The notes under the pieces are model-generated. The model made no database searches, was not told the origin of the DNA, and saw nothing but the letters and a program-made list of their open reading frames with translations. A program made the translations under genes and the position numbers. A DNA stretch of 64,000 nt from the human T2T-CHM13v2.0 reference genome, Homo sapiens. Every line of letters begins with the position of its first letter. The first letter of the stretch is position 1. The DNA is taken from the NCBI RefSeq assembly GCF_009914755.1, contig NC_060936.1; one strand, given 5' to 3'. Below, piece after piece: positions 30,469-64,000 of this stretch.

Positions 30469-35835
<5,367 letters not shown>

Positions 35836-36059: not shown

Positions 36060-36192
36060 CCAGGTTCTGCCCTCGCAGCACCGCGTACGGCCGGCTCCGC
36101 TCCAGCGGATCCACGGGGCTCGGGGCCTCTGCCTCCCCCACCAGGAGGCTGCAGAGGCCAAGGTACAGCCACGGTAACGCTGGACGCAGCAT
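36060..36192 (-). CDS. C12orf76: C12orf76 microprotein exon 1: signal peptide plus short lumenal segment (72 aa in total)
   Basis: aagATGc (A at -3) in a CpG island; MLRPALPWLYLGLCSLLVGEAEAPSPVDPLERSRPYAVLRGQNL G|gtgagc. Confidence 0.85.
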
Positions 36193-36298
36193 CTTCCCCA
36201 GCCCTGCAGAAGCAGAGAGGCCACTTCCGTCGCAAGCCCTGCCTCTGTCTCCTCCCAGGTCTCTCTGCGTCGCTGCCACCGCCCTTAGGGCGCGCGTC

Positions 36299-38678: not shown

Positions 38679-38693
38679 CTACCAGGTGTTCAC

Positions 38694-38862
38694 CTGCAAA
38701 GGGAAGGTGTAATCTGCCATGTTAAAGACACTGTGCACCAACTTCTTCATTTCTTTCTCCACGATCTCCTCTTTCACTTCTGCTGTCCTTTTCACCTTGC
38801 TGTGCACAGAACTGATGACAGGCTCTTTCCACTGGTACAGCTTGCCACTCACCAGAGCAAAG
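38694..38862 (-). pseudogene. Duplicated P2RX7 exon 2 (open frame, intact splice sites)
   Basis: catttag|C TTT GCT...TTG CAG|gtgaac; 169 nt; FALVSGKLYQWKEPVISSVHSKVKRTAEVKEEIVEKEMKKLVHSVFNMADYTFPLQ versus recalled human P2X7 43-98 FALVSDKLYQRKEPVISSVHTKVKGIAEVKEEIVENGVKKLVHSVFDTADYTFPLQ (46/56 identical). Confidence 0.93.
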
Positions 38863-39131
38863 CTAAATGGCAGGCACAGGAAAGCATCAATGGGAGGCAT
38901 AGCACAGTGGGGTGGGAGGCAGGCTCTGCAGGCCACTTCCGTTCCAATCCTAGCTCGGCTGCATGACTTGCTTCCGTGTGACTCGTTTTCCCTCTCTGCA
39001 CAATGGGAAGCATAATCATACCTGCCTCATGAATTGTGAGGATCAAATGATATATGTCTGCAAACTCCTTTGCCCAGTATCTGGCACATACTGAGCACTC
39101 GCTATAGGAAAGCTGCTGCCCCCAATCTCAT

Positions 39132-43216
<4,085 letters not shown>

Positions 43217-43226
43217 TAAATAGAAT

Positions 43227-43799
<573 letters not shown>

Positions 43800-44358
43800 T
43801 CAAAGAAAAAAAAGAGGGAATGAAATCCAGTTTGCACACTTTACCTGTAGGAGGGGAATACTGTGATCACGAAACTGAGTTTGTGATGTCCTCCCTTTGG
43901 AAAGAAAGTACTAATGACCATCCCAGAAATACTATCCCGACCTTGCTTGGTGACTAAGGCAAGCCATGTCACCCTTCCAGGTGTTAGGTTTAATCCCTGA
44001 ATGAAGAGAGAACTCTCAGCCTCCCTAACCCCAATGACCTTTTTGCTCTAAGAGGCTATAATTTTATGCATTCTACAGAAGGCAAAGCTGCTGGTGCCTG
44101 GAGCTAACAGGGGTGTGAAGAAGCTGAGGATTTTACTGGGCCGGGGAGGATGGGTAAATTTTGGGGGTGTGGTGGTGCATGCCTATAGTCACAGCTACTC
44201 ATTAGGTGGAGGTGGGAGGATTCCTTGAGCCCAGGAGTTCAAGACCAGCCTGGGCAACACAGTAAGACTCCAGTCTCTTAAAAAGAAGAAGAAAAAGAGG
44301 AAAGCTGGAAAGAGTCTGGGAGGTAGAAGAGAGCTAATGGGAGAGAAGTTAGGGCCAT

Positions 44359-44676
44359 TGATATGGTTTGGCTGTGTCCCCACCCAAATCTCATCTTGAA
44401 TTGTAGCTCCCATAATTCCCACATGTTGTAGGAGGGACCTGGTGGGAGATAGTGACTAAGTCTTATGAGATCTGATGGTTTTATAAGAGGTTTCCCCTTT
44501 TGCTTGGCTCTTAGTCACTTGTTGCCTGCCACCACGTAAGACGTACTTTTCACTTTCCACCATGATTGTGAGGCCTTCCCAGCCATGTGGAACTGTGAGT
44601 CCATTAAACCTCTTTTCTTTGTAAATTACCTAGTCTCGAATATGTCTTTATTAGCAGCATGAGAACAGACAAATAC
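44359..44676. mobile_element. THE1-type MaLR solo LTR
   Basis: tgatatggtttggctgtgtccccacccaaatctcatcttgaattgtag...gaacagacaaataca. Confidence 0.85.
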
Positions 44677-44797
44677 ATCCATCAAGGGGCACTCACAGGC
44701 AAGTCTGGATGAGGAGGAGCCCTGGAGTGGCAGGGAAATAAGGATGGAGGGTGAGGTTGAGCCCATGGAACCCTCAGGCTGCTTGTGCTGGACTCAC

Positions 44798-44922
44798 CAG
44801 ATGGAGACGAAGGTGTCCACCATAAAGTTGTTCTTCAGAGTCCCAATCCACATGCTCTGAATATAAGTGACTTTCGCAGACTTACCTTGGCATTGCAGGT
44901 AGGATGGGCCCCATGCCAGCAT
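44798..44922 (-). pseudogene. P2X7 exon-1 paralogue / P2X7(K)-like alternative first exon inside the duplicated intron 1
   Basis: accATG CTG...ATC TG|gtgagt; 125 nt; MLAWGPSYLQCQGKSAKVTYIQSMWIGTLKNNFMVDTFVSI(C) aligns without gaps to P2X7 exon 1 (KVTRIQSMNYGTIK). Confidence 0.72.
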
Positions 44923-44993
44923 GGTTAGATTGTTCTTCAAGCTCTGCAGGGAGGATGTGCCTTTCAGCAAAGTTCCTCTCCCCCTTACAGCTC
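44886..44993 (-). CDS. C12orf76: Internal exon of the legacy 135-aa C12orf76 ORF; overlaps the K-like exon in another frame
   Basis: accttag|G AGC TGT...CCA AG|gtaagt; SCKGERNFAERHILPAELEEQSNHAGMGPILPAMPS. Confidence 0.35.
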
Positions 44994-45471
44994 CTAAGGT
45001 TCCAGAGCAAAAGTAACACCAAAGGGCTGAGCCTCCAAAGTGAACTGCCCTCATATCCCTTACCTCATGACTAACCCAGGGCCAACAGACATCTTCATGG
45101 ACCCCTAAAGAACAGTGGCGCCGGGCACTGTGCCTGCAGTGCGGCACGGAGAAGCTGAGCATGCAGCCTCTGCTTCTCTTTTTTAAAATCCCAAGAGGAG
45201 AATCTAATCAAGTCCATCCCTGGTCCTCTAGGCCATGGTGGGGGCTCAGCAAGGGTTGAGGACCCAAGAGATGCTCTGAGAAGAAAATGGGGGAGAGCCA
45301 GCACCCCCAAGGCAAGTTAAATCCCAATTATATTAGTTTCTGTAACAAATTACCACTAACTTAGTGGCTTTCAACAACACTAATGTATTCCTTTCCACTT
45401 TTGGGGGTTAGATTCCTAAAGTCAGTCTAACAGGGTAAAAATCAAGGGCTAAAAAGAAAAAATATAAATTA

Positions 45472-46442
<971 letters not shown>

Positions 46443-46685
46443 TCAAGCTAAGAGGTACATTGTGATAATTTGCCAGTCAGTCTCTGGGATAGATATTTAA
46501 CTGTAACTTTTGTTCAATTTTCCCAATTATAAACAATTTTTGGTAACCCTAATATGTCCTTACCATGTGCCAACCACTCTTCTAAGTCTATTTTGCTGAC
46601 ATATATTAACTTTTGCAATTCTTACTCCCCCCCACCAAAAAAATGAAAACAAAAACCAACTCTATAAGGAAGGTGCTAGTATTAC

Positions 46686-46861
46686 CTCCACCTAATAGCC
46701 GAACAAACTGTGGTATGAATGAAGCGAGAAGCTTGTCCAAGGTCACATGGTAAACAGCAGCGCCAGCTCTGAACGCAGCCATCTGGCTCCACAGCCTCAG
46801 CTCTCTTAAATGCTATGGTAAATGGAATTATTTTTCCAATTTCCTTTTCAAATGTTCCTTG
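46686..46861 (-). CDS. C12orf76: Internal exon of the legacy 135-aa C12orf76 ORF (L1/MIR-derived)
   Basis: ttttacaccag|CAA GGA ACA...TGG AG|gtaat; QGTFEKEIGKIIPFTIAFKR...AIRWR. Confidence 0.35.
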
Positions 46862-47754
46862 CTGGTGTAAAAAAAAATGCACACACACAATTAATTTTTG
46901 TGTGTTGATCTTGTTCCTTGCGACTTTACTGAATTGGTTAATTAGCTCTATCTAATAGTTTTCTTGTGAATTCTTCGGGATTCTCCATATATGGGATTGT
47001 GCCATCTGTGATTAAAGATAGTTTTACTTCATTCTTTGCCATCTGGATGCCTTTTATTGCTTTTCTTGTCTAATTGCTCTGGCTAGAACTTCCAGTACAA
47101 TGTTGAACAGCAGCGGTGAAAGCGGGCATCCTCGTCCTGTTCCTGATCTCAGGAAGAATGCACTCAGGCTATGCTCCTAACAACTGTGCTCACTGTCTGT
47201 CCACCCCACATTCATGTTGCCAGAAATCCCTGCACAAGCTTCTTCACACACCTAAGGCATTAAGTCTATACAGGACTTCTGGGTCAAAGGGTGTGCACAT
47301 TTTCTATCTGAGTTTATTTTCCTAAATCATAAATGCTTGAACCATTTCATGCTTCCATCACCAAAGCAAGAGTGTGTACACTGCCTCTTAAGAGGGGCTT
47401 GACAAACAAGCGGTGTGAACTTGGTTGAGACAGTTGAGGGTCTGGTCGCCAGGCTGAGAGCACATGGCCTGTAGGATGGAGGCTGTGAGTTTGAAGAAGA
47501 GGAGAGACATAGTAGCAGTGTGCAGCCATTTGAAGAGGGACACAAGGCAAAACTAAGCAAAGGTGAAAGTTACAGGGGGAAAGATTTTGGCTCATTTTCT
47601 CAGGAAGAAAAGTGACAGGGCAGTCCCAGAGCAGAACAAGCTTTCCTTGTGGTTACTGCTGGTGATGGTGAGGAAGATGATGAAGATAATTTTCATTTAC
47701 CACATCAACTTCCCTTTCTCTCCTGTCCCCTTTCCATCTGCACTTAACATCATT

Positions 47755-54408
<6,654 letters not shown>

Positions 54409-55631
54409 TCGGGAGCAGAGGGGCCACGCTTGAGTTGGATTTGCTCCTCCTGGTGTCTGGTGCCTCCCCGACCTCCGTGCTGGGCTCACTTCTATTCAGC
54501 TGGAGGAGGCCCAGACCCACAGGTGTGTGGCCACCCACTGGGAAATAGGTGTCCAGCCAGGAGCTCCATTTTAATAGCCACGAACTGGTACAGCAACACC
54601 ATCTCCATGGCGACGGCCAGCCTGGGACCACGAATGAGAACACAGGCTCACTATTGGCCCCAGTGGAGGCTAACTGGGCAGAGGAGAAGCAGCACCTGTG
54701 AGTGGAGTTTGTTCTCCTGTCCCTCTCTCAACCTTCCCTAGTCTGTGGCCATTGGAAAAGCTTCTGTGAGGACTGTTCTCCAGGGAAGAGGGAAATCTTC
54801 CCAAGAGAATGCAACCATCTTTTATTCCTTTGCTTACAATCTTCCCATGGCTTCTCAACTCACTCGGAATAAAATCTAAAGAATTCTCCTAGGTGGTGCC
54901 ATCGTAAGCGGCTTGGTTTAAGCAATAGCTTGGTGGTCACAGAAAACAAATAGTAGTTAAGTACCAAGGTGAGCTGGCAGCCTCTGTGGGCCAAGTCGCA
55001 CATCCCAAATGAGCAGGTCTTCTGGTGGGACTGAGGAAGGAACCAAGGTAAGAATAGGAGCTCAACAATTACCTAGATAGAGTCTCCACAGCCCAGACAA
55101 GCCAGGACTAGAGAAGTAGACTTCAGAAATCCCTGGAATTTCTGGCTTTTGGGAAGACCTTGTAACAGATCACTGTATTTTGTCTGCCTACCCTCCTCAC
55201 TTCCTTTTCCCATTTTGTCTGGTAACAGGATCTTCCTTCCTAAGGAAAATCCACTGGATGTGGTTCAGTAGGGCTCACACTGCTCCGTCATCTTCTCGAA
55301 CTCCAGACCTCAGGTGATCCACCCACCTCGGCCTCTCAAAGTATTGGGATTACAGGGGTGAGCCACTGCACCCGGCCGGCTCAGTCATCTTCTCCCTATT
55401 TCCTGCCACAGGAACCAGCACATGACCCAGACTGGCCAATGGGATGACACCTTGGCCCAGGCGGTGATTGGTTCAGGGATGGATATGTAATTCACACCCA
55501 ACCAATCAGAGTCTTTCCCGGGACTTTCCTAACAGAGCATCAGGAAAGACTTGTTGGCTCCTCTGAGGTTGCTAAGAAGAGAATGTAAGGATTTCATGCT
55601 ACATAGAGAGCTGTTCAAGAAGGAAGCCAAA

Positions 55632-55906
<275 letters not shown>

Positions 55907-55910
<4 letters not shown>

Positions 55911-56031
55911 AAGAAGAAGAAGGAGAAGGAGAAGAGAAGAAGAAGAAGAAAGAAGAAGAAGAAGAAGAAGAAGAAGAAGAAGAAGAAGAAGAAGAAGAAG
56001 AAGAAGAAGAAGAAGAAGAAGAAGAAGAAGG
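55907..56031 (+). repeat. Polypurine tract containing uninterrupted (GAA)26 at 55952-56029
   Basis: Counted directly from the sequence. Confidence 0.95.
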
Positions 56032-56857
56032 CGGCCAAATAGAAGCAAATGGAACCAAGACGTAGGGAGAGAGAACCTACCTGATGACATAGTGTGAACC
56101 CTTATCTTCATCCATGTCCAAGGACAGCACAATCTCTTCAACTGCCCAGTTACATGATTCAATAAATTCCCCTTTGAGGCTTTGTGGTTAACGTAAGCTG
56201 GGTTTCTGTCACTTACTGCGCAAACAATCCTGGCTAACATAGACCTGCTTAGCATCCTATCTACATAAACCTGCAACGCTAACTCCTCTTGTAGCTGCAT
56301 CCCTGCCTCTGACTCCAGATCTGAACTTAGTTGTGAGAATAGAAGAAGCTGGACAGGTTCTTGTTTAATTTCCCCCATAACCAGTCCCCAGTTTCTATCC
56401 CAGTTTCAGTAACTGAGGCCCTGTCTCCTTATTCTGGCTCTTTATCCTTCCAGCCCCAGTAGGGACAGCTGGCCAAAACCTGCCACTTGCTACTGTAACC
56501 TGAACATTGCTCTAGCCTGTCTGGATTGCCACCTATGGTCCACACCAGTACTACTTGGTGCAAACTACTTCCGCCAATCCCTACACCCCATTGGTATACC
56601 CGCTACACAGATGGCTAAGTCATGGTTACATAAACTTAAGGCTTCACACTGCAACTTAAGGCAGCATTTCCCAAGCTGTGTACTGTGAGACTCCATTTGG
56701 TGAGATGATAGTAGATAGTCCATTAACAAAGAGGAAAAAAGCAAACTGGCAATAGTTTTTTCTTCAATTTTATATTTTAAAATATAAACTGTGGAGAAAC
56801 GTTTTACATGGAGGTTATCTTCTAAAGACGGCACTTCAGATAAAAATCATGGCTCAT

Positions 56858-58807
<1,950 letters not shown>

Positions 58808-59364
58808 TAGTAAAAATAGGAATCAAATAATGATAATCCTAATGATAGCATTATTAAAAATAAAAACTAACACTTAATAAGGGCTTGCTATGTGCCATAT
58901 ATTTCTTGAACAACTTTGCATTTATTAGTTCATTTAATATTCCTAACAATTCTCCCCATTTTACAGATGAGGAAACCAAGGCTCAAAGAGGTGAAGGATT
59001 TTAGAATCCACATTTCCAGATCTCAAATTCCAAACTTGGACATGGTTACTCTGAGGGTCAAAGGAGAGGATGTATATAAAAATACATACATGTATTTTGT
59101 ATACAAATATATATATATAATACATTCAAAAAGATTATTTTAAAAAATGGATTCCAGTTATGGAGCTCTTATTCTATGTCAATCATCATGATAAGGGCTC
59201 CTCATGCCTTTTTTTTTGTTTAATTGTCACAACCCTATGAACAGATGCAGAAACAGAGGCTCAGAGAAGTTAATGACTTGGCCAAGAAGACACAGCCAGT
59301 ATTATAAAATAAGTTGCCTTGACTCTTAGTAAACTACACTGCCACCCTCTATAAGTATAGGTTG

Positions 59365-59403
59365 TCATCATCATCATCATCATCAACATCATCATCATCA
59401 TCA
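59365..59403. repeat. (CAT)n microsatellite
   Basis: tcatcatcatc... with one interruption. Confidence 0.9.
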
Positions 59404-59419
59404 CAGAGAATAAGAGGCA

Positions 59420-60690
59420 GTCACTCCCAGGGAAATGCAAATCAGAACCACAATGAACTACCACTGCACACCCACAAGCATGGCTATAATTAAAAAGACA
59501 GACAATAACAAGAGTTGGTGAGGATGTGGAGAAACTGGACCCCTCATACTCTGCTGGTGGGAATGTAAAAGGGTGCAGCTGCTGTGAAATTCAGCTCCAC
59601 AGTTCCTCCAAGGGTGAAACATAGTTAACATATGACCCAGCAATTCCACTCTTAGGTACATATTCAAGGGAAATGAGAATATATATCCACATAAAACCTT
59701 GTTCGCAATGTTTATGGAAGCATTATTCATGATAGCCAAAAAAGAGAAACAACCAAAATGTCCATCAATGGATGAATGGATACATAAAAGTGTTCCATCC
59801 ATGCAATGGAATATTACTCAGCCATAAAAAGGAATGAAGTGTCAGCCAGGTATGGTGGCTCACGCCTGTAATCCTAATACTTCAGGAGGCTGAGGTGGGA
59901 GGATTGCATGAGTCCTGGAGTTTGAGACCAACCTGGGCAACATAGTGAGACCCCAAATCTAAAAAAAAAAAAAAAGTAATGAAGTATCAACATGTTACAA
60001 CAGCTACAACATGGATGAGCACCGAAAACATGCTAAGTGAAAAAAAGCCAGCCACAAAGGACCACATATTGTGTGAGTCCATTTACATGAAATGTCCAGA
60101 ATAGGTAAATCCATAGAGGCAGAAAGCAGATTCATGGGTGGGAAGGAGGGGGAATGGTGTTGGAAATGATGGCAAAGGAGTGTGGGTTTTTTTTGTTTTT
60201 TTTTTGAGTTGATGAAAATATTCTCAAATTGATTGTGGGGATGCTTGCACAACTCTGTGAATAATCTGAAAACCATTAAATTGTACCCTTAAATGGTGAA
60301 TTGCATGGTGTACTGTTTCTTTTAGAAAAAACAAAAACCAGCCAGACACGGTGGCTCACGCCTATAATCCCAGCACTTTGGAAGGCTGAGGCAGGTGGAT
60401 CACATGAGGTCAGGAGTTCTAGACCAGCCTGGCCAACATGGCGAAACCCCGTTTCTACTAAAAATACAAAAATTAGCTGGGCTTGGTGGCAGGCACCTGT
60501 AATCCCAGCTTACTTGGTGGCGGGGGAGGATAGCGTGTGGGCAGGTGGAGGCAGGCGAATCTCCTGAACCCAGGAGGCGGAGGTTGCAGTGAGCCAAGAT
60601 CACACTGTCACACTCCAGCCTGGGGTACAAGAGCGAGACTTCATCTCAAAAAAAAAAAAAGAAAAAAGAAAAGAAAAAGAAAAAAACAAA
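59420..60690 (+). mobile_element. L1M 3' end with an Alu monomer (59844-59975), followed by an Alu (60340-60690)
   Basis: ggatgtggagaaactggacccctcatac...gacccagcaattccactcttagg...ttactcagccataaaaaggaatgaa. Confidence 0.8.
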
Positions 60691-61120
60691 AGGCAGGTGT
60701 TGGTGACCTGAAGTTAAAATACATTTATAAACCTGGTCCTATTCTTCCCAAGCACGGTGACTCAAATGCCAGCCTGATCACCAGGAGTGCCCTGAGATCC
60801 TTGCCTCCTCCCTGGGAATCCAGGATGTTGCCCTGCGCTTTCCCACCTTCCCCAGGCACACCCTGCCCTGCTCTCCCTGGCGGGCCTGGAGTAGATCAGA
60901 AATGAATCCCGCTCGCCTTCCATGGCTTCTCTCTGCTGCAGCCTGGCACCATTTCCTCTTGCCTGATGCTGCTTCCTCCCTCCTGCCCGGTTTGCTGTGA
61001 AAGCACGTCCAAATTTGAAAACCATGTGAGATTCAGAATGTGCACCTGAAGCTGCCCCCTGGGGCTTTCTGTGCTGTCAACCACTGCAGAGATCTGGGGT
61101 CCTCCCTGCATCCCACTTAC

Positions 61121-61242
61121 CTAACATAGGAAAAGACGATCACGTGGAAGAACTTAATGGTGCCATAATTGATGCTTTGGATCCGGGCGACTTTGTTTGT
61201 CTCATACAGGAAAACATCACTGCAGCTGCAGCAGGCTGGCAC
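61121..61242 (-). pseudogene. Duplicated P2RX7 exon 1 coding part (start ATG>GTG, one codon deleted)
   Basis: ggaggctgtaaccGTG CCA GCC TGC TGC...GTT AG|gtaagt; VPACCSCSDVFLYETNKVARIQSINYGTIK-FFHVIVFSYV versus recalled MPACCSCSDVFQYETNKVTRIQSMNYGTIKWFFHVIIFSYV. Confidence 0.93.
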
Positions 61243-61420
61243 GGTTACAGCCTCCCTTCCTGCGCGGGGCTGGACCAGGGCTCAACTCTCCCAGATGGGG
61301 CCACAGCAAGCCCCCTCCCAGTAACTGCAAAATGAAACATACTGATTTTTAGCGGGAGCCTTTAACTTTGAGCTCTTCCAATGACTGTGGAGTGGGGGCG
61401 GGCCCTGGCAGTTGCCCCAG
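61243..61420 (-). promoter_or_regulatory. Duplicated P2RX7 5'UTR and proximal promoter with GC box
   Basis: Minus-strand tttcattttgcagttactgggagggggcttgctgtggccc matches the recalled P2RX7 5'UTR; GGGGGCGGGC at 61394-61403. Confidence 0.7.
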
Positions 61421-61777
61421 ATGTGACTTCGATAAACAAGAAGGGCCAAGTCCTAAGGGCCTGGTTGGCAGATGACCTCGCCCCAGCTGGCCTCCCCCAG
61501 ATGCCTACACAAAGATGGTATTCAGAGGATGGGCATTTTTAGAATTCTCCTTTTTTCCCCCTTTCCTTTCGCTTTTTTGGACTCATTTCTGTTGGGAAAA
61601 GGGGGCAGCCCTGCAAATGTCACAAGACCCAGAGCTTCGATTGTACCTCAGAAAAGGGCTGAGATCTTTCCATTGCCTCAAGCCCCACTCAGAGATTGAT
61701 TCATTCATTTCTACAACCCTTTATTCAGCCCCTGATATATAGGAGCTCTGGGTAAATAAAGGTCTCCCCTTCTTCTT

Positions 61778-61839
61778 CTACCAGCCCTTATAATATTCTG
61801 GTCTGTAGCTACCAGCCCTTATGATATTCTGGTCTGCAG
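61778..61839. repeat. Tandem duplication, 2 x 31 bp
   Basis: ctaccagcccttat(a/g)atattctggtctg(t/c)ag occurs twice. Confidence 0.85.
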
Positions 61840-62849
61840 TTGGTGGGGAAAATCAGATTTGCAGGAGTGGGGATGCTAGGGGTGGAGGGGTTTTATTTAT
61901 CTGCAGGATCTTTCTCGCTTGACCCTCTGAGTTACTCTCCACCCTGCTCTGTGCCCCGGAAGTTCAACCCATGACCTAGATCAATCAGCCCAAGATCACC
62001 AGGGACCAAGTGGCAGCCCAACAAAGCTAGGTTTATTGATCTATTCCATGAGGGACGCCACCCACCAGATGAGCCTCAGGACATCACCAAACAGTGGAAG
62101 ACAGCGATTTATTACAGGATTCCGAGGAAAGTGGAGTTTAGATAAAATCCAAATGAAGTCATGTTTTGATAGACTCAAAGCAAAGCAGGCTTGTACAAAG
62201 CAGTCAACCTCAAATCTGGATTGCAAAGGGGACCCAGGGCCCTGTTTTCTTGAAAGCAACAAAGCTAAGATAAATGTCAAATGTGTCCAGAAACTCTTTA
62301 TCTGAATCTCTGCTCCTAAGTTGTAAATTGAGGCTGCTTCTCCGTGTCAAGATGACTTAGATCCTCCAGGCAAAATTGGAATATTTCAATCTTAGTCACA
62401 TAATTTCAAACAGCAAACTTTCTGATGGTCTGTGATTTTAAAGGACAATGTTTCAGCAGTCACTCAAAGACAGGGGTGGGGTAATATTATAACTTTACAG
62501 CTACAAAGAAATATTGTTTCCTGTTATCTTTGCAGCTGACTTGATCCATTTCTGTTACTCCAGTCTGCTAAGTGGCCAGGTAGATTTTTACTTTTCCAGT
62601 CTGAGCTAATTTGTACATTCCCACCCACACTAACTGTATCAGGGTCCCCCCCTCCCAACCCCCCGCCCCCGACCCCTGGCTTCCAGTTCAGGAGACTGGA
62701 GAGCAGTGAGGATGGACGTGACTCCAGGCCCTACCCTTCTCAGTTCCATATAGGCGGGGCTTCTGGGCACTACTCCCTCCTTTAGTCCTGGGAGTGGTAA
62801 GGGTTCCCCACTCTTGCCAGCCCCAGGCAGCTCACTATCTCTTATTGCT

Positions 62850-63694
<845 letters not shown>

Positions 63695-64000
63695 TTACCT
63701 GCTCTGTGACCTTGGACAGCTCTGTTCATTTTATTCATTCACTTATTCATTCATTCATTCCCAAGAGCACCAGGAATAGTGGATATAGCAGCGGACAGGC
63801 AGACAAGTCAAATGTCCATCCACTGACAAATGAATCCACAAAAGGGTGTCTGTCCATAAAAGGGAATATTATTCATCCTTAAAAAGTAATGAAGCACTGA
63901 CCCATGCTTCAACATGGATGAGCCTTTAAAACATTACACTAAGTGAAATAAGCCAAATGCAAAAGGACACCTTTTTTTTTTTTTTTTTTTTTGAGATGGA

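What the first reader, a model, noticed from the sequence alone, without database searches (positions are those of the whole stretch)
44798..44922. Open P2X7(K)-like alternative first exon preserved in a human P2RX7 duplicate
Seen: on the minus strand an ATG in good context (taaccATGc) opens exactly 125 nt (41 codons + 2) to a consensus donor TG|gtgagt. The peptide MLAWGPSYLQCQGKSAKVTYIQSMWIGTLKNNFMVDTFVSI aligns in register with the exon-1 copy 16 kb away (NKVARIQSINYGTIK). Its phase-2 end joins the exon-2 copy to rebuild the junction Cys (TG+C, ...SICFALVS). Known (from memory): P2RX7 exon 1 has 125 coding nt. Rodent P2X7(K) uses an alternative exon in intron 1 (approx. MLPVRHLCSYNSAKVLHIHSTRLGALKNFFLLAICIYIC), sharing SAKV..I.S...G.LKN.F with this peptide, and I know of no functional human K exon. 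Inference: this is a primate K-exon orthologue carried along in the duplicated intron, and it is the only ATG-intact first exon of the duplicate. Its TM1 half looks eroded (N and D in NNFMVDT).
Basis: partly seen in the sequence, partly recalled or inferred. Interest (0 to 1): 0.9.

Follow-up and report, generated by a model that had tools for sequence, protein, structure and literature searches.

The report
Relic P2X7(k) first exon in duplicate
This short open reading frame is a leftover copy of the alternative "K" first exon of the ATP receptor gene P2RX7, carried inside an old partial duplicate of that gene; it looks like a decaying relic, not a working receptor exon.

Summary
Window 44922-44798 (minus) is ATG + 41 codons + TG followed by GTGAGT. 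It lies in an old partial duplicate of P2RX7, covering upstream region, exon 1, intron 1 and exon 2. That block runs from window 38679 to at least 74000 and is 88.3% identical to the parent.

The peptide is homologous to the K-type N-termini of P2X7 isoforms from rodents and donkey (BLASTP E 4e-11 and 2e-9).

The parental copy in real P2RX7 intron 1 has TGA at codon 10 and a GTGGGT donor.

Nothing indicates selection or receptor function:
- 11 of 12 differences from the parent are non-synonymous.
- Identity is ordinary for the block.
- ATG, open frame and GT all survive in 54% of neutral simulations.
- The orangutan copy has V in place of the initiator Met.
- The duplicate ends 15 nt after exon 2.

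RefSeq uses a stronger internal donor (exon 44886-44993) and no exon-2 copy. This is a new member of a known kind, of moderate-low interest. Its main value is as a fossil explaining why humans lack P2X7(k).

The parts
44798..44922 (-). K-like alternative first exon copy: ATG, 41 codons and 2 nt (phase 2 end). It is the paralogue of a pseudo-exon in real P2RX7 intron 1.
44792..44797 (-). Donor GTGAGT after CTG, matching 8 of 9 positions of MAG|GTRAGT. The parental copy has GTGGGT.
   Evidence: The consensus is recalled textbook knowledge.
44886..44993 (-). RefSeq C12orf76 cassette exon. It has an AG acceptor at 44995-44994 and contains the K ATG and its first 12 codons. It ends at an internal perfect donor AAG|GTAAGT (44885-44880).
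   Evidence: The hub's gene table.
61121..61242 (-). P2RX7 exon-1 coding copy. It has GTG in place of ATG and a 3-nt deletion, and ends AG|GTAAGT. It is the 3' part of the annotated first exon of long C12orf76 transcripts (61121-61334).
   Evidence: gene table.
38694..38862 (-). P2RX7 exon-2 copy, 169 nt, open, with donor CAG|GTGAAC. It is not an exon of any transcript in the gene table.
   Evidence: (Pfam P2X_receptor E 6.7e-6).
38679..64000 (-). The part of the duplicated P2RX7 5' block that lies in the window. It corresponds to G000:C12:121121699-121145747 and continues to at least 74000 beyond the window end. It ends 15 nt after the exon-2 copy.
   Evidence: (88.3% identity over 18,121 aligned columns).
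46686..46861 (-). Annotated upstream C12orf76 exon. Its ORF (ATG at 46782) runs in frame into the K frame of exon 44993-44886.
   Evidence: The orangutan protein P0003 has the same N-terminus, 94% identical over 32 residues.

Best explanation
The 125-nt ORF is a paralogous copy of the primate orthologue of the mammalian P2X7(k) alternative first exon (exon 1'). That exon encodes an alternative N-terminus and most of TM1.

It was carried along when the 5' end of P2RX7 was duplicated to what is now the C12orf76 locus. The duplicated piece covers at least 10 kb upstream, exon 1, intron 1 and exon 2. The event predates the split of Old World monkeys and apes, and probably that of New World monkeys.

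The exon was probably intact when copied. Since then both human copies have drifted neutrally. An ancestral CGA codon 10 decayed at its CpG to TGA in P2RX7 itself and to CAA in the duplicate, so the duplicate stayed open by luck.

The duplicate lacks exons 3-13 and cannot give a P2X subunit. What is used today, according to annotation, is a cassette exon of C12orf76 (44993-44886). It takes in the K ATG and 12 codons, then splices at an internal donor that became a perfect consensus at least partly on the human side after the orangutan split.

Shown here: the duplication, the homology, the differences between the two copies, and the neutral pattern. Inferred: intactness at the time of duplication, the timing, and the absence of use of the 125-nt form.
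For: Duplication.
- A collinear chain of 24 alignments joins window 38679-63977 to C12:121121699-121145747. Identity is 88.3% over 18,121 columns.
- The block continues at least 10 kb past the window.

Paralogue. 2 of 2 genomic matches were found, the second inside P2RX7 intron 1.

K homology.
- 6 of the 120 listed P2X7 relatives carry a 39- or 42-residue alternative N-terminus before FALVS. They are Phodopus, Marmota, Ictidomys, Sciurus, Equus asinus and one unnamed ENA record.
- 2 more K-type sequences came.
- P0001 is 47-53% identical to the six aligned, with E 4e-11 and 2e-9.
- The rodent isoforms are 3 residues shorter than the A form of the same species (593 against 596). This matches the published definition of K (passages in PMC9329894 and PMC10179175).

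Neutral pattern.
- There are 12 differences in 125 nt, 11 of them non-synonymous.
- Identity of 113/125 is reached by 38% of 604 windows of the same size.
- The frame stays open by chance in 54% of simulations.
- The orangutan orthologue of the duplicate (P0003) has V for M1 and R at codon 10.
- Donkey K also has R at the aligned position.

No route to a receptor. The block ends at 38679, 15 nt after exon 2.

Annotation. The gene table lists exon 44886-44993 and no exon at 38694-38862. The internal donor AAG|GTAAGT matches 9/9 consensus positions, against 8/9 for CTG|GTGAGT.
Against: - No RNA data could be consulted. Use of the 44798 donor, or a start site upstream of 44922, is therefore not excluded.
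- The ATG has A at -3.
- Acceptor and frame of the exon-2 copy are intact.
- K plus the exon-2 copy would read on in frame into the 36219 exon and the C12orf76 ORF. That exon has no AG acceptor, however.
- P0001 alone gave no Pfam match at E <= 10 and no PDB match at E <= 10. The case for homology therefore rests on pairwise and profile comparison with predicted isoforms, not curated models.
- The neutral test compares only two copies over 125 nt and has little power.
- Mouse and rat K sequences and other primate genomes were not available.
Confidence: 0.8

Rival explanations
1. The functional unit here is not the 125-nt K exon but the C12orf76 cassette exon 44993-44886. The first 12 K codons have been recruited into a coding isoform of the small membrane protein C12orf76. 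This partly overlaps the main explanation and does not exclude it.
For: - Joining the annotated exons 46861-46686, 44993-44886 and 30152-28870 inside a script gives a 96-codon ORF. It starts at the ATG at 46782 and passes through the K frame, with K codons 1-12 as residues 57-68.
- That ORF continues in the frame of the canonical C12orf76 last coding exon, which holds the hydrophobic C-terminal segment.
- The orangutan protein P0003 begins with the same upstream ORF and runs through the K frame.
- The two bases before the internal donor differ from the parent in the direction of the consensus: AAG|GTAAGT against AGT|GTAAGT.
Against: - The gene table does not say which exons are combined, nor whether the other 3 transcripts are coding.
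- The search of cluster representatives returned 3 proteins, none of them an identifiable human isoform.
- One passage groups C12orf76 among former missing-protein candidates that are 'incompletely described' (PMC10775140).
- The orangutan copy keeps C at codon 13, so it does not share the G that makes the human internal donor a perfect consensus.
Confidence: 0.3
2. The K-like exon is spliced to the exon-2 copy. The product is a peptide of about 100 residues, with a P2X7-like N-terminus, TM1 and the first 56 ectodomain residues, that has a function of its own, for example as a decoy in P2X7 assembly.
For: - ATG, frame, donor GT, exon-2 acceptor and exon-2 frame are all intact.
- The join gives 98 codons, or 102 with read-through into the former intron 2.
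- The exon-2 copy still matches Pfam P2X_receptor at E 6.7e-6.
Against: - No annotated transcript contains the exon-2 copy (gene table).
- A stronger donor lies 88 nt upstream inside the ORF, and it is the annotated one.
- The exon-2 donor is weakened: GTGAAC against the parental GTGAGC.
- TM1 carries D36 and N32.
- Substitutions look neutral.
- The ATG is absent from the orangutan copy.
Confidence: 0.04
3. A chance ORF whose likeness to P2X7 N-termini is coincidental.
For: - A 41-codon ORF is common in random sequence.
- P0001 alone gives no Pfam or PDB match.
Against: - Its position inside a collinear duplicate matches the parental intron.
- BLASTP gives E 4e-11 with full-length alignment in register to a K-type isoform.
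- The phase-2 end is identical to that of exon 1.
Confidence: 0.01

Closest known systems
Rodent P2X7(k) exon 1' (Nicke et al. 2009, J Biol Chem 284:25813). That paper is not held; it is known here only through passages of reviews PMC9329894, PMC3360091, PMC4436801 and PMC3407210.
   Same: - It lies in intron 1 between exon 1 and exon 2.
- It has its own ATG and encodes an alternative N-terminus plus most of TM1.
- It ends in phase 2 and joins exon 2 at the C|FALVS junction.
- It is 47-53% identical to K-type N-termini of rodents and donkey.
   Different: - It has 41 codons + 2 nt, like donkey, against 38 + 2 in the rodents.
- It sits in a truncated duplicate with no exons 3-13.
- TM1 carries D36 and N32.
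- No transcript joining it to exon 2 is annotated.
- Its functional properties (higher agonist sensitivity, gating by ADP-ribosylation) cannot apply.
The K-like pseudo-exon in real human P2RX7 intron 1 (G000:C12:121139856-121139980, L002:1621-1745).
   Same: - It is the direct paralogue, identical at 113 of 125 nt.
- It has the same ATG context, the same length and the same phase.
   Different: - The parent has TGA at codon 10, T17, E27, D32 and G36.
- Its donor is GTGGGT, and its internal donor is weaker (AGT|GTAAGT).
- The duplicate is open, but only the parent is attached to a complete receptor gene.
P2RX7 exon 1 (A-type first exon).
   Same: - Both have 125 coding nt and a phase-2 end.
- The similarity is in register (E 5e-5, 14 of 27 identical).
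- This fits an ancient tandem duplication of the first exon.
   Different: It is clearly closer to K-type than to A-type sequences. The N-terminal Cys-rich MPACC motif is absent.
'P2X purinoceptor 7-like' or uncharacterised short proteins predicted in Old World monkeys (P0071 Mandrillus, P0081 Theropithecus, P0108 Piliocolobus, P0093 Rhinopithecus).
   Same: - They are orthologues of this duplicate.
- Their exon-2 part shares the derived W11, S21, R25, N47 and M48 with the window's copy.
- In the three that include the exon-1 part (P0071, P0081, P0108), it also has V for M.
   Different: Those models use the exon-1 copy, or read in from the intron. None of the four contains the K-like exon.

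Membership tests
P2X7(k) alternative first exon (exon 1') | Lies within intron 1 of P2RX7, between exon 1 and exon 2. | tested here: met
   The parental copy is 16.0 kb after exon 1 and 5.6 kb before exon 2. The window copy lies at the same relative place between the exon-1 and exon-2 copies, at 16.2 and 5.9 kb.
P2X7(k) alternative first exon (exon 1') | Sequence homology to K-type N-termini, the roughly 39 residues that replace the first 42 of P2X7A. | tested here: met
   BLASTP gives E 4e-11 against donkey and 2e-9 against hamster. Identity to 6 K-type sequences is 47-53%. Mouse and rat K sequences themselves were not obtained.
P2X7(k) alternative first exon (exon 1') | Own ATG, an open frame, and a phase-2 donor that joins exon 2 in frame. 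| tested here: met
   It is not met by the parental human copy, which has TGA at codon 10.
P2X7(k) alternative first exon (exon 1') | Spliced to exon 2 in real transcripts that start at this exon. | not testable with these tools
   No RNA-seq or CAGE data were on hand. The gene table has no exon at 38694-38862, and it ends the overlapping exon at 44886, not 44798.
P2X7(k) alternative first exon (exon 1') | Gives a full-length functional P2X7 subunit (exons 2-13 follow). | tested here: not met
   The duplicated block ends at 38679, 15 nt after the exon-2 copy. Below that point only dispersed repeats match the P2RX7 locus.
P2X7(k) alternative first exon (exon 1') | Hydrophobic TM1 segment after the conserved W-[IVL]-G-[TI]-LKN motif. 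| tested here: inconclusive
   The motif is kept (WIGTLKN). The 10 residues after it hold N32 and D36, with mean hydropathy 1.19 against 1.92-2.45 in 6 K-type sequences. No membrane-insertion test was done.
Pfam PF00864 P2X_receptor | Match to the curated profile at its gathering score (27 bits). | tested here: not met
   P0001 gave no match at E <= 10. The exon-1 copy scored 13.3 bits and the exon-2 copy 25.8 bits, both below the cut-off, as expected for single exons.

The most novel reading that the evidence does not exclude
The duplicate is more than a fossil. Transcripts would start upstream of 44922 or at the captured P2RX7-type promoter, then join the 125-nt K-like exon to the exon-2 copy. 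The product would be a membrane-anchored P2X7 N-terminal fragment of about 100 residues. In human immune cells it could interfere with, or chaperone, assembly of P2X7 trimers, as a primate-specific modulator born from the lost K exon.
Probability: 0.03. Interest if true: 0.7.

Novelty: new member of a known kind. Interest (0 to 1): 0.33.

Why it matters
P2X7(k) is the highly sensitive form of the receptor that dominates in mouse T cells (PMC4436801 passages). Reviews state that no human equivalent has been identified (PMC9329894 table note). One paper asks outright whether humans can make one (PMC3407210 discussion passage).

The two human copies together give a concrete answer.
- The orthologous exon still exists in P2RX7 intron 1. 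It is disabled there by a nonsense codon, best explained as a CpG decay product, and it has a donor that departs from the consensus at +4.
- The old duplicate keeps the frame open. With the orangutan copy and donkey K, it points to Arg (CGA) as the ancestral codon 10.

This bears on how far mouse T-cell P2X7 biology can be carried over to humans. It also gives a simple test: look for the CGA allele in human variation data and in other primates.

The copy in this window is itself most likely inert.

Tried and rejected
Searches that gave little or nothing.
- A 20-kb whole-genome DNA search was swamped by dispersed repeats: 89 matches, none at P2RX7. Its twin for 44001-64000 did not complete because the machine was busy. 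I fetched the P2RX7 locus instead and ran local blastn.
- Pfam and PDB searches with the 41-residue peptide alone gave nothing.
- Nicke et al. 2009 is not held, by DOI or by PMC id. I could not see what it says about the human intron. [quoted passage not shown]
- Literature searches found no description of a P2RX7-derived origin of C12orf76:
  - 'C12orf76' + 'P2RX7' gave 1 paper, seen in the listing only and on an unrelated topic.
  - 'C12orf76' alone gave 37 papers, of which 25 titles and abstract starts were seen. Passages of 2 were read.
  - 'P2X7' + 'alternative exon 1' + 'human genome' gave 0.
- No K-type sequence of the P2X7 protein was found in paper text. It appears only in figures.

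Ideas tested and set aside.
- Fusion of K, the exon-2 copy and the 36219 exon is in frame with C12orf76. I rejected it because 36219 has no AG acceptor.
- Extra conservation of the K exon between the paralogues was rejected.
- A profile search for primate P2X7 proteins with a K N-terminus gave 10 hits among 4,830 candidates. None was a primate P2X7. This is weak evidence, because isoforms are merged in 90% clusters.
- The search of cluster representatives with the upstream ORF gave 3 proteins and no recognisable human isoform.

Full report
**1. The observation.**
On the minus strand the window reads ctaaccATGc, with the ATG at 44922-44920. There follow 125 nt of open frame to 44798 and then GTGAGT.

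- An exon-1 copy at 61242-61121 has GTG for ATG and lacks 3 nt. The true exon 1 has 125 coding nt and ends TTG|GTAAGT.
- An open 169-nt exon-2 copy lies at 38862-38694.
- Joined in a script, the TG at the end of the ORF and the first C of the exon-2 copy give Cys followed by FALVS.

**2. The setting: an old partial duplicate of P2RX7.**
A genome-wide search with 401 nt around the ORF scored 2 of 2 candidates. One was the window itself. The other was G000:C12:121139736-121140128 on the other strand, at 91% identity.

I fetched 90 kb of that locus and ran local blastn. This gave a collinear chain of 24 alignments joining window 38679-63977 to C12:121121699-121145747. Identity is 88.3% over 18,121 aligned columns, with 722 gap columns.
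- The block continues at least 10 kb beyond the window end, to at least 74000. I did not find its upstream end.
- Its other end is sharp, at 38679, 15 nt after the exon-2 copy. Below that only dispersed repeats match.

So the duplicate holds the upstream region, exon 1, intron 1 and exon 2, and nothing of exons 3-13.

Raw divergence is 11.7%. By my own arithmetic this is about 0.127 after Jukes-Cantor correction. At recalled primate neutral rates that puts the event at roughly 40 million years, which is an inference.

Independent support for the age comes from predicted proteins.
- Short proteins predicted in four Old World monkeys share the derived residues W11, S21, R25, N47 and M48 of the exon-2 copy. 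The three that include the exon-1 part also share V for M there.
- A Saimiri protein (P0030) shares N47 and lacks the two substitutions typical of New World monkey P2X7. It is probably the same duplicate.

At 88% identity the pair would fall below the usual 90% threshold for segmental-duplication tracks. That threshold is recalled, not checked.

**3. Is it the K exon?**
The mouse and rat sequences could not be obtained. The original paper is not held, and in the open papers the alignment is only in a figure.

The large protein database does hold mammalian P2X7 models. Searching it with true exon 2 (L007:565-732) returned 170 proteins among 187 candidates, of which 120 were listed.
- 6 of those 120 have an alternative N-terminus of 39 or 42 residues in front of FALVS, in place of the usual MPACC-type start. 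They are Phodopus roborovskii, Marmota monax, Ictidomys, Sciurus vulgaris, Equus asinus and one unnamed ENA record.
- A profile search added Acomys russatus and one unnamed read-through ORF.
- In Phodopus and Marmota the isoform is 593 residues, against 596 for the A form. This is the three-residue difference by which reviews define P2X7(k) (PMC9329894 and PMC10179175 passages).

P0001 aligns to these sequences over its whole length. The invariant columns are C11, W25, L29, K30, N31, F33 and I41, and identity is 47-53%.

| BLASTP of P0001 against | E-value |
|---|---|
| Donkey K-type isoform, residues 1-41 against 1-41, no gaps | 4e-11 |
| Hamster K-type isoform | 2e-9 |
| A-type P2X7, in register | 5e-5 |

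The exon is therefore a K-type exon. K and A first exons are themselves distant relatives of the same length and phase.

Alone, the peptide is too short for the curated models. It gave no Pfam hit at E <= 10 and no PDB hit.

**4. The parental copy and what the pair shows.**
In real P2RX7 intron 1 the same 125 nt lie 16.0 kb after exon 1 and 5.6 kb before exon 2 (L002:1621-1745). They have the same ATG and context, but TGA at codon 10 and GTGGGT as donor.

The two copies differ at 12 of 125 nt, and 11 of the 12 changes are non-synonymous.
- Codon 10 is CAA in the duplicate and TGA in the parent. These are the two transition products of a CpG in CGA.
- The orangutan orthologue of the duplicate (P0003) has R there, and donkey K has R at the aligned position.
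- So the frame difference between the two human copies comes down to which strand of one CpG decayed. This is an inference from those four sequences.

Comparison with the outgroups shows damage on both sides.
- Derived in the parent: T17 and E27, the latter breaking the conserved WIGTLKN motif.
- Derived in the duplicate: D36, shared with orangutan.
- Derived in the human duplicate only: Y8, G13, A16 and V39.

The state common to both primate copies has no stop and matches the donkey exon in length, so the exon was probably intact when it was duplicated. This too is an inference.

**5. Selection or chance?**
- The K segment is 113/125 identical to its paralogue. 38% of 604 windows of 125 nt along the block are at least as similar.
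- With 5.8% change per site, half the observed divergence, ATG, open frame and GT all survive in 54% of 20,000 simulations.
- The orangutan copy has lost the ATG.
- The TM1 part is less hydrophobic in both human copies than in 6 K-type sequences: 1.19 and 1.53 against 1.92-2.45.

Nothing here calls for purifying selection. The power of these tests is low.

**6. What is used today.**
The gene table lists a C12orf76 exon at 44886-44993.
- Its acceptor AG is at 44995-44994.
- It contains the K ATG and 12 codons.
- It ends at AAG|GTAAGT, a full match to the textbook donor consensus. The parent has AGT|GTAAGT there, and orangutan keeps C at codon 13, so at least the -1 G arose on the human side after the orangutan split.

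The 44798 donor (CTG|GTGAGT) lies 88 nt further on and is not an annotated exon end. The exon-2 copy is in no listed transcript, and its donor is GTGAAC against the parental GTGAGC.

I joined the annotated exons 46861-46686, 44993-44886 and 30152-28870 in a script.
- The result is a 96-codon ORF that starts at 46782 and contains K codons 1-12 as residues 57-68.
- It continues in the frame of the canonical C12orf76 C-terminal hydrophobic segment.
- The orangutan protein begins with the same upstream ORF.

Whether human transcripts combine these exons is not stated in the table, and I could not check it.

The first exon of the long C12orf76 transcripts (61121-61334) is the P2RX7 exon-1 copy with its donor. 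Those transcripts therefore appear to start at the captured P2RX7-type promoter.

**7. Literature.**
- One paper leaves open whether humans can make such an isoform (PMC3407210 passage).
- One review adds that the human intron sequence 'predicted' a possible alternative site, citing the 2009 paper, which I could not read (PMC6717933 passage). The parental relic may therefore already have been noticed.
- I found nothing on a P2RX7-derived origin of C12orf76 or on a K-like copy there. The searches were made; I saw listings, and passages of two C12orf76 papers.
- Supplements were not consulted.

**8. Verdict.**
The most likely reading (0.8) is a neutrally decaying paralogue of the primate K exon. 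It is open by luck, unable to give a receptor, and partly re-used as a C12orf76 cassette exon.

It is a new member of a known kind. Its interest lies mostly in what it says about the loss of P2X7(k) in the human lineage, not in any activity of its own.

Noticed in passing
window 61121-61334 (-): The annotated first exon of the long C12orf76 transcripts is the copy of P2RX7 exon 1, with its 5' UTR and the same donor position. Those transcripts therefore seem to start at a duplicated P2RX7-type promoter (gene table).
   Followed up: partly
G000:C12:121139856-121139980 (L002:1621-1745), outside the window: Real human P2RX7 intron 1 holds the K-exon orthologue as a pseudo-exon. The ATG is kept, codon 10 is TGA, E27 sits in the conserved WIGTLKN motif, and the donor is GTGGGT.
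   Followed up: yes
P0075 (Equus asinus P2X7 isoform X2, a cluster of 9 members): A donkey P2X7 model has a K-type N-terminus of the same length as the human relic. Reviews say K isoforms are known only in rodents, so the exon looks older than rodents.
   Followed up: partly
window 38694-38862 and 36060-36219 (-): Read from the exon-2 copy, the 9 codons before the C12orf76 start codon in exon 36219-36060 are open and in frame. However, 36219 has no AG acceptor, so this is probably coincidence.
   Followed up: yes
window 32117-32230 (-) and 46800-46950 (-): The alternative exon 32117-32230 translates like an Alu sequence; that reading is my own recognition and was not tested. The 5' part of exon 46686-46861 and its flank match about 38 dispersed copies genome-wide at 71-77% identity, so it is an old repeat that has become part of an exon.
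   Followed up: partly
P0030 (Saimiri boliviensis, 106 aa): A New World monkey protein model reads from the intron into an exon-2 sequence. It shares N47 with the catarrhine duplicate and lacks the substitutions specific to New World monkey P2X7. This suggests the duplication predates the platyrrhine split.
   Followed up: partly
C12orf76 as a gene (window 28870-61334): A nine-primate scan lists C12orf76 among positively selected 'uncharacterized genes' (PMC5737536 passage). For a small, young ORF that may simply reflect relaxed constraint.
   Followed up: no
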